A stretch of DNA of 64,000 bases from Pseudomonadota bacterium (GTDB lineage: Bacteria > Pseudomonadota > Alphaproteobacteria > UBA2136 > UBA6156): the NCBI GenBank assembly GCA_016125035.1, contig WGMN01000016.1, positions 1,554 to 65,553 on the forward strand, written 5' to 3'. Below are positions 34,408-36,837 of the stretch, in pieces. The translations under genes and the position numbers were made by a program. Position 1 is the first letter of the stretch, and the number at the start of each line of letters is the position of its first letter. The notes beneath the pieces were generated by a model that saw nothing but the letters and a program-made list of their open reading frames with translations, was not told the origin of the DNA and did not search any database.

Positions 34408-36018
34408 ATGGATACCAACCTCGCTTCACGGCTGAAAACTCTTATCCAGCAACGCGGTCTCACCGCGGCTGGCCTTGCGCGCCAGGCCGGGCTCTCGGTG
34501 GCCAGCCTCTCGCGCATCCTTTCTGGCCAAACCAACCCGTCTTTTCAAAGCGTCAGCCGCATCGCCGCGGCCCTGGGCGTGGGGCTGGAGAGCCTCTCCC
34601 CCGCCCCCACCCAGGCCACTGCCCCTCTGGCCGAGAACACCGTCCGCGCCGTCTATACGCTTGAAAACACCGACCATTCCACGCAAGAAGCCGGCCAGCT
34701 CATGCTCCAGGCCGCCCTGGGCAGCTGGAGCCACAGCTGGATGCACCCCTACGTCGCCGAAGGCATAGAAGCCCCCACCCTCGCCTCGGCCAGCCAAAGC
34801 GGCAGCCACCGCCAACAGGTGCAACTGGCCTTCCCCCACCAATTGGTAGAGGGCGGCAGCGTCGCCAGCCTGCTCAGCGTGGTCACCAGCGCGCTCTCGG
34901 GCACCGGCGCGCGGCTGCTGGATGTCACCGTCCCGCCCACCCTCATCCGCACCTTCTCCGGCCCGGCCTTCGGGCTGCGCGGCCTGCGCGATACCTTCAA
35001 CAAACACGGCCGCCCGCTGCTGGCCTGCACCATCCGCCCCATGCACGGGCTCTCTCCCCGGCTTTACGGCCGCGCGGCGTTCGAGGCCCTCATCGGCGGG
35101 GTGGATATCACCGTCGATCCCGCCCTGCTGCACTCCATCCCCTCCAACCCGTGGCGAGAACGCTTCCGCTTCGTGGCGGAAGCCGCCGCCGCCGCCTCGC
35201 GTGAAACCAATGAGTTTAAAACCCACGCCGTCAACATCACCGCCCCCACCATGGAAGACATGCTGGAACGCGCCACCTGGGCCAAAGAGCTGGAATTGGC
35301 GATGGTGATGGTCGACACCGCCGCCATCGGCTGGTCGGCGGTGCAAAGCTTGGGGGCATTCTGCGCCAAAAATGAGCTCATCCTGTGCGCGCTCGGCACC
35401 CGCAGCCTCAACGGCTCCATGCTGTCCGAGCAACTCCAGGCCAAGCTCCTGCGCATCTGCGGGGCCGATGCCGTCTCCACCGGCTCGCCGCTGCGCGGCA
35501 ACGTCTCCAACCGCCGCTACGTCACCGGGGTGCTCTCGGCGCTGCGCGATGATTCCCTCCCCGCCCAGCCAGAGGCCGGGCACCACCTGCCCCAACCTTT
35601 CGAGGGCCTCACCGCCGCTATCCCGGCGGTGGGCGGCGGCCACAACCCGTGGCAATTCCCCCGGCTGATCGACGCCATTGGCGATAACGCCCTCATCCAG
35701 TGCGGCGGCGCGGTCATGAGCCACCCCTGGGGCGGCCAGGCCGGGGCCACCGCCTGCCGCACGGCTATCGAGGCCCTGGTCCAGGCCCGCGGCGAGGGCC
35801 ACAACCTCAACGTGGAAGGCCGCTCCATCCTGCTCAAGGCCGCCAAATACAGCCCCGACCTCAAACAGGCGCTCGATACCTTCCAGGAAGGCTCGTTCCT
35901 GTTCGGCGTGGTGCACACCCTCTCCCGCCCCACGGAAGGCTCGATCCTGCCGGGAACCAACAACCCCAGCCCAACAATAACCCCCTTCCGCCGCCCGGAG
36001 CCGACCAATGAAGACTAG
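34408..36018 (+). CDS. XRE-family helix-turn-helix domain fused to a RuBisCO large-subunit-like protein (form-I-like, catalytic residues replaced)
   Basis: 536 aa. N-terminus [58 protein letters not shown] is an XRE HTH. The rest aligns with RbcL across both domains ([70 protein letters not shown]). The ORF-track extension to 33880 is rejected. Confidence 0.85.
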   Translation: [536 protein letters not shown]

Positions 36019-36502
36019 CGCCGATATACTGCAATTGGCCATGGAGCAAGCCGTCCAGGCCGCCGCACAAGCCGAGTACCCCTTCGGCGCGGCCATCGTC
36101 AAAGAGGGCCGTATAATCTGTGCAGAAGGTTCCGGAGCGGCAGAAAATGAGCCCGACCCCACCGCACATTCCGAGGTCAACGCCATCCGTAAAGCCGCCA
36201 AAATCCTCGGCACCGCCAACCTTTCAGGCTGCACACTGGTCTCCTCGTGCGAACCCTGTCATCTGTGCTTTGGCGCCATGTATTACGCCGGTATCCGAAC
36301 GCTGGTAACCGCAAGCTCGATTAAACAGATGGAAACCATCGGCTGGAAATGGCCGGAAAAAGACTTGGCCACCCACCCGGAAACCTACAAAACCGTAAAC
36401 ATCGCCCTCACCGAAGGACTGTTGCACAATGAGGTGATGGCCATGTACCGCCAGCATCCCCAGGCACGAATCACGAATAACGAATCACGAGTTACGATAT
36501 GA
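36008..36502 (+). CDS. CMP/dCMP-type (CDA fold) zinc deaminase, TadA/guanine-deaminase-like
   Basis: 164 aa with HSEVNAI (H.E) and CEPCHLC (PC..C) zinc motifs. Its start overlaps the upstream stop by 11 nt. Confidence 0.85.
   Translation: MKTSADILQLAMEQAVQAAAQAEYPFGAAIVKEGRIICAEGSGAAENEPDPTAHSEVNAIRKAAKILGTANLSGCTLVSSCEPCHLCFGAMYYAGIRTLVTASSIKQMETIGWKWPEKDLATHPETYKTVNIALTEGLLHNEVMAMYRQHPQARITNNESRVTI
36465..36499. repeat. heptamer tandem repeat CACGAAT-type x5, at the deaminase C-terminus next to the rbcS-like start
   Basis: cacgaatcacgaataacgaatcacgagttacgata encodes ARITNNESRVTI* and ends at the ATGA overlap with the next gene. Confidence 0.85.
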
Positions 36503-36837
36503 GATTTGAAACCTTCGCCTTCCTCCCCCCGCTCTCCCCCCAACAGGTGGAGGCGCAGGCCAACCATATCCTCACCCAGGGCCACCTCCCCACCATCGAG
36601 TTCGCCGAGAACCCCAGCAGTGCCGATTTCTACTGGCGCTCATGGCCCATCCAACCGGGGCGCATCAACAGCCTCACCGGCAAGCCGGAACCCCTCACCG
36701 CCGCCCACCTCACCAACCAGCTGGAAGCCTGCGCCCGCCGCCACCCCTACGCCTTCATCCGCCTGTCGGCCTATGATCCCAAAACCCGCCAAACCACCCT
36801 CTCCTTCATCACCAAAACCCCGCAGGAAGGCCAGTAG
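36499..36837 (+). CDS. RuBisCO small-subunit (RbcS/CbbS) homolog
   Basis: 112 aa. RFETFAFLPPLSPQQVEAQANHILTQGHLPTIEF...FYWRSW...HPYAFIRLSAYDPKTRQTTLSFI parallels cyanobacterial RbcS [34 protein letters not shown]...FYWTMW...[20 protein letters not shown]. ATGA overlap with the deaminase gene. Confidence 0.85.
   Translation: MRFETFAFLPPLSPQQVEAQANHILTQGHLPTIEFAENPSSADFYWRSWPIQPGRINSLTGKPEPLTAAHLTNQLEACARRHPYAFIRLSAYDPKTRQTTLSFITKTPQEGQ

What the first reader, a model, noticed from the sequence alone, without database searches (positions are those of the whole stretch)
34408..36837. Operon encoding an XRE-HTH::RuBisCO-large-subunit fusion with a dead active site, a CDA-fold deaminase and an RbcS homolog
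What the sequence shows:
- One uninterrupted ORF (34408-36018) starts with a textbook XRE helix-turn-helix ([54 protein letters not shown]).
- It continues into a full-length RuBisCO large-subunit fold that is closest, by my manual alignment, to form I.
- [41 protein letters not shown] aligns with spinach [41 protein letters not shown].
- [56 protein letters not shown] aligns with [56 protein letters not shown].
- [54 protein letters not shown] aligns with [56 protein letters not shown].
- Every catalytic position I can place is replaced: K175->R210, K177->M212, carbamylated K201->V236, Mg ligands D203->P238 and E204->A239. The HIHRAMH segment becomes CALGTRS. In the DHIHSGTVVGK segment, which becomes [11 protein letters not shown], H327->S and K334->R.
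- The last gene (36499-36837) is an unmistakable RbcS homolog.
- A zinc deaminase gene sits between them.
- All three genes overlap (ATG 36008 lies before TAG 36016-18; ATGA at 36499-36502).
- No prk, cbbX or carboxysome genes are in the window. The only pentose-phosphate gene (rpe) is 20 kb away.

Established knowledge: known RuBisCO-like proteins (form IV) keep the carbamylated lysine and never pair with small subunits.

Inference: this is a non-carboxylating L+S RuBisCO-derived assembly. It may have been recruited as a DNA-binding regulator, as a ligand-sensing scaffold, or as a platform for the deaminase.
Basis: partly seen in the sequence, partly recalled or inferred. Interest (0 to 1): 0.95.

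Follow-up and report, generated by a model that had tools for sequence, protein, structure and literature searches.

The report
Dead RuBisCO turned DNA-binding protein
A group of small-genome bacteria keeps a RuBisCO large subunit that has lost all its carbon-fixing residues, is fused to a DNA-binding domain and is still paired with a RuBisCO small subunit; it most likely acts as a self-regulating, metabolite-sensing gene regulator, a use of RuBisCO I could not find described in the literature I could search.

Summary
Window 34408-36018 encodes one 536-aa protein made of an XRE HTH, a flexible linker and a complete form-I-type RbcL fold. K175, K177, K201, D203, E204, the H294/R295/H298 segment, H327 and K334 are all replaced. 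A CDA-fold deaminase (36008-36502) and a true RbcS homolog (36499-36837) follow with overlapping stop and start codons.

- **Distribution.** The fusion is found in 26 of 29 species genomes of the window's alphaproteobacterial order (all 0.9-1.9 Mb) and in 3 small genomes of two other families. None of the 29 has a canonical RbcL, and the window's genome has no PRK.
- **Selection.** dN/dS is about 0.02-0.09 for L and 0.06-0.10 for S. The replaced active-site positions are themselves highly conserved.
- **Small subunit.** RbcS lies directly downstream in nearly every locus. A predicted canonical L-S interface is supported, and it has decayed in the one subclade that lost RbcS.
- **Operator.** A palindrome (TTSCA-N4-TGSAA) lies upstream of the fusion in 26 of 28 loci.
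- **Deaminase.** It occurs only in this genome. Other lineages carry NUDIX, glyoxalase-fold or membrane genes at the same spot.

Best reading: an autoregulated, probably ligand-gated DNA-binding protein built on a RuBisCO L-S scaffold. No description was found in nine literature searches.

The parts
34339..34352 (.). Distal operator-like site TTCCACCTACGCAA (one mismatch to TTBCA-N4-TGVAA)
   Evidence: PWM 14.6 bits. Near-identical sites lie upstream of the fusion gene in L011-L014.
34392..34405 (.). Perfect palindrome TTGCATAAATGCAA, 3 nt before the ATG. Proposed operator of the HTH domain.
   Evidence: It is the only perfect copy in the genome and the best PWM site in the genome at 22.6 bits, against 18.0 for the next. 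The motif lies upstream of the fusion gene in 26 of 28 loci, at 9.8 per kb against 0.28 per kb elsewhere in the same loci.
34408..34596 (+). XRE-type helix-turn-helix domain (residues 1-63) of the fusion protein
   Evidence: HTH_3 E 9e-12 and HTH_31 E 1e-11. Five helices in the AF2 model with pLDDT about 90. Recognition helix LSRILSG is nearly invariant in the family.
34597..34638 (+). Flexible linker (residues 64-77), variable in length across the family
   Evidence: pLDDT below 50 for residues 66-73. Length and sequence vary in alignment A1.
34639..34947 (+). RbcL N-terminal domain (residues 78-180). E60, T65 and N123 equivalents are replaced; W66 is kept (W107).
   Evidence: RuBisCO_large_N 17.8 bits, below the cut-off. 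NF003252 covers residues 91-503. AF2 model. Alignment.
34948..35904 (+). RbcL C-terminal TIM-barrel (residues 181-499) with a remodelled, metal-site-free pocket: R210, D233, T235, D237, P238, R332, S357, S360-R363, R369-R370 and G409-W415
   Evidence: RuBisCO_large E 1.5e-58. Alignments. 13 of 22 active-site-equivalent positions are at least 90% conserved in the family, against 25% of all positions. Family-specific conserved residues.
35905..36018 (+). Disordered C-terminal tail (residues 500-536) with the short conserved motif T-I-T-P-F-R-R-P-E and an acidic end, followed by the stop codon
   Evidence: pLDDT 31-43. Motif conserved in part of the family (columns 601-661).
36008..36502 (+). CDA-fold zinc deaminase, 164 aa. 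A lineage-specific passenger gene; closest solved relative is a guanine deaminase.
   Evidence: dCMP_cyt_deam_1 E 4e-20. 1tiy/1wkq B. subtilis guanine deaminase E 2e-21. Absent from all other L-S loci. The genome has two other CDA genes.
36499..36837 (+). RbcS homolog, 112 aa, green-type-like, with a 9-residue insertion before helix B
   Evidence: RuBisCO_small E 2e-18. Solved RbcS hits down to E 8e-17. Directly downstream of the fusion in nearly all loci. dN/dS 0.055-0.10. Complex prediction.
37106..37139 (.). GC-rich hairpin with T runs on both strands. Likely bidirectional terminator closing the operon.
   Evidence: This is a pattern match only, and such matches are no more frequent here than in shuffled sequence.

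Best explanation
The locus encodes a RuBisCO-derived DNA-binding complex, not a carboxylase.

**What it is made of**
- A form-I-type large subunit lost its Mg2+/carbamate site and its acid-base residues.
- Its barrel pocket was rebuilt with a new, strictly conserved set of mostly basic and small residues.
- It gained an N-terminal XRE helix-turn-helix on a flexible tether.
- It kept its small subunit, which still binds at the canonical site and presumably holds L2 dimers in a higher-order L-S particle.

**How it most likely works**
- Pairs of HTH domains bind a 14-bp palindrome (TTSCA-N4-TGSAA) in front of the gene. There is often a second copy 17-21 bp away. The operon therefore regulates itself.
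- I infer that an anionic small molecule, possibly phosphorylated, binds in the old active site.
- In RuBisCO the N-terminal arm, loop 6 and the C-terminal tail order over the occupied site. Binding there could change how the tethered HTH domains are presented and so gate DNA binding.
- The deaminase is a passenger gene that this one lineage inserted into the regulated operon. Other lineages inserted NUDIX, glyoxalase-fold or membrane genes at the same spot.

**Shown by computation:** the architecture, the loss of catalytic residues, purifying selection, near-universal presence in the order, the L-S linkage and the operator motif.

**Inferred:** DNA binding itself, the oligomeric state, the existence and identity of a ligand, and the allosteric route.
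For: **Architecture and dead site**
-.

**No CBB context**
- One RbcL-like gene, one RbcS-like gene and no PRK in a 90.7%-complete genome.
- A single hit to P0001 per genome across the order, so no canonical RbcL.

**Real, selected family**
- About 88 clusters at 90% identity carry the same fusion.
- It is present in 26 of 29 genomes of the order, and in three small genomes from two other families of the class.
- Synteny is conserved, with proS on one side and glmM-ftsH on the other.
- dN/dS is 0.02-0.09 for L and 0.055-0.10 for S in the closest pairs.

**Pocket remodelled, not decayed**
- R210, P238, R332, S357 and G409 are 100% conserved.
- 59% of active-site-equivalent positions are at least 90% conserved, against 25% overall.

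**L-S binding**
- rbcS lies directly downstream in nearly all loci.
- Complex prediction scored 0.61, best of 3 controls 0.00. That mark was reached by 58 of 80 solved complexes and 2 of 110 mismatched pairs. The runs agree in at least 83% of contacts and the partner's pLDDT is at least 79. The interface is the canonical one, and the pass may reflect the model's memory of solved RuBisCO structures.
- Independent evolutionary support: in the clade that lost RbcS, 18 of 23 predicted interface positions changed, against 73 of 225 other conserved positions (Fisher p 4e-5). RbcS-bearing members keep the canonical form I residues there.

**DNA binding**
- The recognition helix is nearly invariant.
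- The palindrome motif occurs in the 160 nt upstream of the fusion in 26 of 28 loci, 35-fold enriched over the rest of the same loci and often in tandem.
- In the window's genome the site at 34392-34405 is unique and is the top PWM hit.
Against: - No regulon beyond the gene's own promoter is visible. Genome-wide motif counts equal those of the controls, so the physiological output is unknown.
- In most genomes the operon holds only L and S.
- The motif was derived from the same upstream regions in which it was then counted, so that test is partly circular.
- The oligomeric state was not modelled. Only L plus S was.
- No ligand is identified, and a new metal-independent catalysis cannot be excluded from sequence.
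- At least one member appears to lack the HTH (P0103) and one subclade lacks RbcS. Neither add-on is therefore indispensable to the barrel's function.
- The four RbcS-less sequences are close kin and amount to roughly one evolutionary event.
Confidence: 0.55

Rival explanations
1. Bifunctional protein. The barrel is a new, metal-independent enzyme or a tight metabolite-binding or sequestering protein, and that is its main job. The HTH only feeds back on its own synthesis, as in PutA, BirA or NadR.
For: - Only the gene's own promoter carries a strong site, and no regulon is detectable.
- The pocket is the most conserved part of the protein.
- An HTH-less member exists.
- The gene is retained in very small genomes across a whole order, which fits a metabolic role.
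Against: - Every residue used for catalysis by known RuBisCO-superfamily enzymes is gone: the carbamylated K201, the Mg ligands D203 and E204, K175 and H294.
- No conserved metabolic partner genes lie in the neighbourhood.
Confidence: 0.22
2. Architectural protein. A multivalent L-S particle displays several HTH pairs. It works as a nucleoid-associated or DNA-bridging scaffold rather than as a classical ligand-gated regulator.
For: - Form I ancestry and the retained RbcS suggest a high-order oligomer with many HTH domains.
- Tandem operators lie about two helical turns apart.
- The host genomes are small.
Against: - The binding motif is specific and not enriched genome-wide.
- Strong conservation of the buried pocket is not explained by a purely architectural role.
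- The oligomeric state is untested.
Confidence: 0.1
3. The L-S assembly is a platform or partner for the deaminase encoded between them.
For: The three genes are translationally coupled in the window.
Against: - The deaminase is absent from every other L-S locus, including the genome of the same genus.
- The same intergenic position holds unrelated genes elsewhere: Glyoxalase, NUDIX and a membrane protein.
Confidence: 0.03
4. A decaying relic of a lost Calvin cycle, or an assembly or gene-calling artefact that joins an HTH gene to rbcL.
For: The host lacks PRK and any canonical RuBisCO.
Against: - The same uninterrupted fusion occurs on dozens of independent contigs.
- dN/dS is far below 1.
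- Family-specific residues are invariant.
- No stop codons lie inside any match.
Confidence: 0.01

Closest known systems
Form I RuBisCO (RbcL8RbcS8), green-type IA/IB and the reconstructed ancestor of SSU-bearing form I (PDB 7qsw)
   Same: - Full RbcL fold (TM 0.85-0.91).
- 32-40% identity.
- Sister to, or within, form I in the tree (family plus form I 100/99).
- An adjacent rbcS gene, and canonical SSU-binding residues kept.
   Different: - All catalytic and Mg/carbamate residues are replaced.
- It scores below the NCBIfam RbcL cut-off, 313 against 438 bits.
- It carries an N-terminal HTH and a C-terminal tail.
- There is no PRK or CBB context.
- It sits on a long stem branch of 1.2 substitutions per site.
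Form IV RuBisCO-like proteins (MtnW/YkrW enolase, RLP isomerases, OiaX and others)
   Same: Non-carboxylating members of the RuBisCO superfamily found in non-autotrophs.
   Different: - It does not branch with the non-form-I sequences in the tree.
- It has a small subunit and an HTH.
- It lacks the K201/D203/E204 metal site that the characterised RLP enzymes use (established knowledge).
- NCBIfam scores to MtnW and OiaX are far below the cut-offs.
One-component regulators built from an enzyme fold fused to an HTH. Examples from my own knowledge: MocR/GabR (aminotransferase fold), PuuR (HTH_3 plus cupin), NadR and BirA. PRK08154 (XRE HTH plus shikimate-kinase-like domain) was hit.
   Same: - An N-terminal HTH on a linker.
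- An enzyme-derived C-terminal domain that oligomerises and could bind an effector.
- An operator at the gene's own promoter.
   Different: - The sensor module is a RuBisCO large subunit, and it comes with a separate obligate-looking partner subunit (RbcS).
- No effector or target genes are known.
SSUL modules of CcmM and of cyanobacterial Rubisco activase
   Same: They are another case of an RbcS-type fold used outside catalysis.
   Different: - Those are domains that bind active RuBisCO.
- Here a free-standing RbcS pairs with an inactive RbcL.
- P0003 matches true RbcS far better (E 1e-14 to 1e-17) than SSUL chains (E 0.16-0.9).

Membership tests
Form I RuBisCO large subunit (functional carboxylase) | Two-domain RbcL fold (N-terminal alpha/beta domain plus TIM barrel) | tested here: met
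Form I RuBisCO large subunit (functional carboxylase) | Carbamylatable K201 and Mg2+ ligands D203 and E204 | tested here: not met
   V236, P238 and A239 in the window. In the family these positions are A/C/V, P (100%) and T/A.
Form I RuBisCO large subunit (functional carboxylase) | Catalytic K175, H294 and K334, and P2-phosphate ligands R295 and H327 | tested here: not met
   R210, a deleted or replaced segment, G364 and S357.
Form I RuBisCO large subunit (functional carboxylase) | Score over the curated NCBIfam RbcL cut-off | tested here: not met
   NF003252 scores 313 bits against a cut-off of 438.
Form I RuBisCO large subunit (functional carboxylase) | Partner small subunit encoded next to it and binding at the canonical site | tested here: met
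   Binding is predicted, not measured.
Form I RuBisCO large subunit (functional carboxylase) | Phosphoribulokinase / CBB-cycle context in the genome | tested here: not met
   No PF00485 match in the 90.7%-complete genome.
Form IV RuBisCO-like protein | Phylogenetic placement with form IV, outside forms I-III | tested here: not met
   The family groups with form I at 100/99 support, apart from all other superfamily representatives. The outgroup sequences were not individually labelled by form.
Form IV RuBisCO-like protein | Homodimer without a small subunit | tested here: not met
   A conserved adjacent RbcS. The oligomeric state itself is not testable here.
XRE-family transcriptional regulator | HTH_3-type DNA-binding domain | tested here: met
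   PF01381 E 9e-12, over the cut-off. Five-helix model.
XRE-family transcriptional regulator | Palindromic operator at regulated promoters | tested here: met
   TTBCA-N4-TGVAA lies upstream of the gene in 26 of 28 loci. This is a sequence inference, and the motif was derived from the same regions.
XRE-family transcriptional regulator | Demonstrated sequence-specific DNA binding and an effect on transcription | not testable with these tools
   Needs EMSA or footprinting and expression data. No RNA run was listed.
RuBisCO small subunit (RbcS) | PF00101 over the cut-off, with the N-terminal arm motif (FETFSxLPPL) and the core beta-sheet | tested here: met
   66.6 bits against a cut-off of 27. Alignment to 1uzh_C and 7qsw_B. 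Alignment A2.
CDA-fold zinc deaminase | H-x-E and P-C-x-x-C zinc and catalytic motifs | tested here: met
   HSE at residues 54-56 and PCHLC at 82-86. PF00383 at 72 bits. Substrate not tested.
Anti-phage defence systems (PADLOC) | Match to a defence-system protein model beyond a generic HTH | tested here: not met
   Only generic HTH hits and a weak zinc-motif hit.

The most novel reading that the evidence does not exclude
A RuBisCO holoenzyme-like L-S particle has been converted into a multivalent, metabolite-gated transcription factor. The old active site serves as the sensor, and the ligand-dependent ordering of the N-terminal arm serves as the switch for the fused HTH domains. That would be the first non-enzymatic, DNA-binding function for the RuBisCO superfamily. 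It would also be the first role for a free RbcS outside carbon fixation. The gene is kept as a core gene by whole orders of small-genome Alphaproteobacteria.
Probability: 0.4. Interest if true: 0.9.

Novelty: new variant of a known kind. Interest (0 to 1): 0.82.

Why it matters
RuBisCO is one of the most studied enzymes, and its superfamily is thought of as carboxylases plus a few Mg-dependent RLP enzymes.

- **A new branch.** This branch descends from, or sits next to, small-subunit-bearing form I. It has discarded catalysis, kept the small subunit and gained a DNA-binding domain. It is nearly universal in an order of bacteria with 1-2 Mb genomes.
- **A natural experiment on the small subunit.** It bears on what RbcS does apart from catalysis, such as assembly or solubility. 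The RbcS-less subclade, whose interface has decayed, serves as an internal control.
- **A possible biosensor scaffold.** It could be a new effector-sensing module whose pocket derives from a sugar-bisphosphate site.
- **An annotation problem.** Public pipelines label these genes 'ribulose-bisphosphate carboxylase large chain'. That could lead to carbon fixation being wrongly inferred for these MAGs.

Tried and rejected
- **Literature.** Nine full-text searches found no description of an HTH-RbcL fusion or of a non-carboxylating form I with RbcS. Follow-up reads did not either. Subscription papers are not covered.
- **Regulon search in the window's genome.**
  - The exact motif gave 10 hits against 11 for the reversed control.
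  - PWM hits were about as many as in shuffled sequence.
  - The strict palindrome with one mismatch gave 2 extra sites against 1 in the control.
  - Most extra sites lie inside long ORFs.
  - No regulon was found.
- **Expression.** No RNA holder was listed. The only DNA holder is a hot-springs metagenome that may be the source sample.
- **Promoter scan.** No sigma-70-like site was found upstream of the operon.
- **Placement within form I.**
  - The careful tree puts the family outside the sampled green plus red form I (95/91).
  - The AU test does not reject family plus green-type (p 0.08), so the exact origin is unresolved.
  - Labelled form I', I-alpha and cyanobacterial sequences could not be fetched with the tools at hand.
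- **Defence-system reading.** Rejected.
- **Conserved downstream partner in the RbcS-less subclade.** None was found.
- **Not tried.** L2, L2S2 or L8S8 models and HTH-DNA models (only one complex job was allowed), a search for split or shorter forms with the 'lengths' option, and the GTDB name of the order. Only the genus placeholder UBA6156 of one relative is documented (PMC12616128).

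
Full report
**1. What is in the sequence**

Three same-strand ORFs are present exactly as described.
- 34408-36018 encodes P0001 (536 aa).
- 36008-36502 encodes P0002 (164 aa).
- 36499-36837 encodes P0003 (112 aa).
- P0001 and P0002 overlap by 11 nt. P0002 and P0003 overlap in ATGA.

Pfam results:
- P0001 has HTH_3 at residues 9-61 (E 9e-12) and RuBisCO_large at 191-492 (E 1.5e-58).
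- It also has a sub-threshold RuBisCO_large_N at 83-177.
- P0002 is dCMP_cyt_deam_1 (E 4e-20).
- P0003 is RuBisCO_small (E 2e-18).

NCBIfam's RbcL model aligns residues 91-503 of P0001. It scores 313 bits against a cut-off of 438.

The AF2 model has mean pLDDT 85. It shows a five-helix HTH (residues 1-63), a disordered linker (64-77), both RbcL domains, and a disordered tail (500-536). All 50 best Foldseek hits are green-type form I RbcL chains, with target-normalised TM-scores of 0.85-0.91.

**2. The active site is gone, but it has not decayed**

HMMER alignment to 7qsw_A and 6ekc and a 30-sequence MAFFT alignment agree on the replacements:

| Canonical residue | In P0001 |
|---|---|
| K175 | R210 |
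| K177 | M212 |
| K201 | V236 |
| D203 | P238 |
| E204 | A239 |
| H327 | S357 |
| S379 | G409 |
| K334 | G364 (R363 is adjacent) |

- The H292-H298 segment is shortened, and R332 sits at the H298 position.
- Across 27 family members, R210, P238, R332, S357 and G409 are invariant.
- 13 of 22 active-site-equivalent positions are at least 90% conserved, against 25% of all positions in the RbcL part.
- 36 positions are conserved in the family but differ from form I. They cluster at the pocket and on the stretch G409-R419.
- The backbone glycines of the P1 phosphate site (G410, G411, G433, G434) are kept.
- The pocket therefore has no metal site, but it is rich in conserved arginines. By inference this suggests an anionic ligand.

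**3. It is a family, and a core gene of a lineage**

- About 88 clusters at 90% identity carry the same HTH-RbcL architecture at 40-71% identity. All come from MAGs or metagenomes. The next hits are true form I RbcL at 35-40% identity.
- At 50% clustering, the exhaustive search over 1.84 billion proteins finds only about six representatives of the family.
- Host range:
  - The window's genome is 1.45 Mb and 90.7% complete. It comes from a hot-springs metagenome.
  - In its order, 26 of 29 species genomes have the fusion, and all of them are 0.9-1.9 Mb.
  - Each has a single match to P0001, except G007, which has two copies of the fusion. None therefore has a canonical RbcL.
  - One of the three 'misses' (G013, 54% complete) has the RbcS gene at a contig end.
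  - In a sample of 401 genomes of the class, three more small genomes from two other families carry the fusion. All other hits are ordinary form I.
- Synteny is conserved, with proS on one side and glmM-ftsH on the other. This points to vertical inheritance.
- For the least saturated pairs, dN/dS is 0.02-0.09 for L and 0.055-0.10 for S. dS is near 1, so these values are rough.

**4. Origin**

- A careful ML tree gives the family 100/100 support on a stem of 1.21 substitutions per site.
- Family plus form I has 100/99 support.
- The sampled green-type plus red-type form I excludes the family at 95/91.
- An AU test does not reject family plus green-type (p 0.08).
- Similarity scores, for both L and S, are highest to green-type and to the reconstructed ancestor of SSU-bearing form I.
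- The family is therefore an early offshoot of, or sister to, small-subunit-bearing form I. The exact node is unresolved, and long-branch effects are possible.

**5. The small subunit is a real partner**

- An RbcS gene follows the fusion directly (gaps of 9-140 nt) in nearly all complete loci. Its motifs are strongly conserved.
- Complex prediction of L(78-536) plus S gave these results:
  - Score 0.61, best of 3 controls 0.00.
  - That mark was reached by 58 of 80 solved complexes and 2 of 110 mismatched pairs.
  - The runs agree in at least 83% of contacts, and the partner's pLDDT is at least 79.
  - The interface is the canonical one: the N-terminal arm of S against L helix 8 and neighbouring elements.
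  - The pass may be memory of solved RuBisCO structures.
- A separate evolutionary test supports the interface:
  - Genus g14 keeps the fusion but has no PF00101 gene anywhere in 85-97%-complete genomes.
  - In that clade 18 of 23 predicted interface positions changed, against 73 of 225 other conserved positions (odds ratio 7.5, p 4e-5).
  - RbcS-bearing members keep the form I residues at those positions (R194, K199, G201, R202, E269, R451, E455, E463, G464).
  - The RbcS-less sequences are close kin, so this counts as roughly one event.

**6. The HTH has a conserved target**

- Upstream regions of relatives cannot be aligned. Nevertheless they carry the same kind of site, such as TTGCATTTATGCAA, TTCCATATATGGAA and TTTCATATATGAAA.
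- The pattern TTBCA-N4-TGVAA, with at most one mismatch, occurs in the 160 nt upstream of the gene in 26 of 28 loci. That is 9.8 per kb against 0.28 per kb in the rest of the same loci.
- Sites often come as two copies 17-21 bp apart. The window has a second, weaker site at 34339-34352.
- The recognition helix (LSRILSG) is nearly invariant.
- In the window's genome the perfect palindrome is unique. It is also by far the best PWM hit, at 22.6 bits against 18.0 for the next.
- Total motif counts match the controls. I can therefore support autoregulation but not a wider regulon.
- Caveat: the motif was defined on the regions in which it was then counted.

**7. The deaminase is a passenger**

- No other locus has a deaminase between L and S, not even the genome of the same genus.
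- At the same spot other lineages carry different genes:
  - a Glyoxalase/VOC protein in L011
  - NUDIX hydrolases in L021 and L023
  - a 178-aa membrane protein in L014
- P0002 has intact HxE and PCxxC motifs. Its closest solved relative is B. subtilis guanine deaminase (E 2e-21).
- The genome has two other CDA-family genes.
- The L-S gap therefore seems to be a place where small 'house-cleaning' type genes are repeatedly captured, presumably to ride on the operon's regulation (inference).

**8. Mechanism proposed**

- A catalytically dead RbcL-RbcS particle displays tethered HTH domains that bind palindromic operators at its own promoter.
- The conserved, arginine-lined former active site binds an unknown anionic metabolite.
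- In RuBisCO the N-terminal arm, loop 6 and the C-terminal tail order over an occupied site (established knowledge).
- That coupling offers a ready-made route from the pocket to the N-terminal HTH tether.
- I put this reading at 0.55.
- The main rival, at about 0.22, is that the barrel's own binding or catalytic job is primary and the HTH serves only for feedback.
- An architectural role gets about 0.1.
- The deaminase-platform, relic and artefact readings are effectively excluded.

**9. Comparison and novelty**

- It is not a functional form I RuBisCO, because the catalytic features and the curated cut-off are not met.
- It is not a form IV RLP. Its placement, the small subunit and the missing metal site all argue against that.
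- It works most like HTH-plus-enzyme-fold one-component regulators such as MocR/GabR or PuuR. That comparison rests on my own knowledge.
- Nine literature searches found no description. Databases call these genes 'ribulose-bisphosphate carboxylase large chain', 'helix-turn-helix domain-containing protein' or 'RuBisCO large subunit C-terminal-like domain-containing protein'.
- I rate it a new variant of known kinds, namely the RuBisCO superfamily and enzyme-derived one-component regulators, and of high interest.

Noticed in passing
window 36008-36502; L011:3130-3495; L014:2174-2710; L021:3192-3596; L023:1022-1420: The short gap between the fusion gene and rbcS is a recurrent insertion point. 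It holds a CDA deaminase here, a Glyoxalase/VOC protein, a 178-aa membrane protein, and NUDIX hydrolases in other lineages. Most genomes have nothing there.
   Followed up: yes
G009, G010 (L033, L034); G011, G012: One genus keeps the HTH-RbcL fusion but has no RbcS gene anywhere. Two sister species have lost both. The RbcS-less proteins have changed most predicted S-contact residues.
   Followed up: yes
L054:382-1845 (P0103): This family member has no HTH. A lysine-rich N-terminus replaces it, and 380 nt of non-coding-looking DNA lie upstream. It is seen on a single 1.85-kb metagenomic contig.
   Followed up: partly
window 35905-36015 and 36817-36834: The disordered C-terminal tail of L carries a short conserved motif (T-I/V-T-P-F-R-R/K-P-E) and an acidic end. 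RbcS ends in a conserved K-T-P-Q-E-G-Q. Either could be a docking peptide.
   Followed up: no
window 32369-32445 (-) and 32500-36000: A tRNA-Met(CAT) gene lies 2 kb upstream. G+C is 0.64-0.69 from about 32.5 to 36 kb, against 0.59-0.63 on both sides.
   Followed up: no
window 33393-33800 (+) and 33915-34322 (+): Two 135-aa ORFs lie just upstream of the fusion. Both have signal-peptide-like N-termini and no Pfam match. No equivalent ORFs were recognised at this position in the two relatives' loci inspected (L004, L009).
   Followed up: partly
L003/L011 (VAFM01000001.1), L008/L016 (QFOU01000071.1), L007/L015 (CANHVX010000040.1): Public MAG records labelled Blastochloris viridis, Pseudomonas fluorescens and Pseudomonadaceae carry the fusion. 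The genome tool places them in the same small-genome family as the window, so the names look like mislabels.
   Followed up: partly
G007 (L019 and L036): One genome holds two copies of the fusion (64% and 56% identity to P0001). Its contamination estimate is 4%, so they may be paralogs or a mixed bin.
   Followed up: no
P0150 and other representatives: Many RuBisCO-superfamily representatives outside this family lack K at the carbamylation position. One of them, P0150, has the same D-P substitution in the GG-x-D-x-x-x-D-P motif but groups with an unrelated clade in the quick tree. This is a possible independent loss.
   Followed up: no
window 37106-37139; 37191-37940 (-): A strong GC hairpin with T runs on both strands lies between the operon and a convergent alpha/beta-hydrolase gene. 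glmM (37942-39381, -) and ftsH (40703-42751, -) follow, as in relatives.
   Followed up: partly
L004:3884-5041 (-): In a relative, a 385-aa protein with a Tlde1 domain (type VI secretion L,D-transpeptidase effector family) lies between proS and the fusion gene.
   Followed up: no
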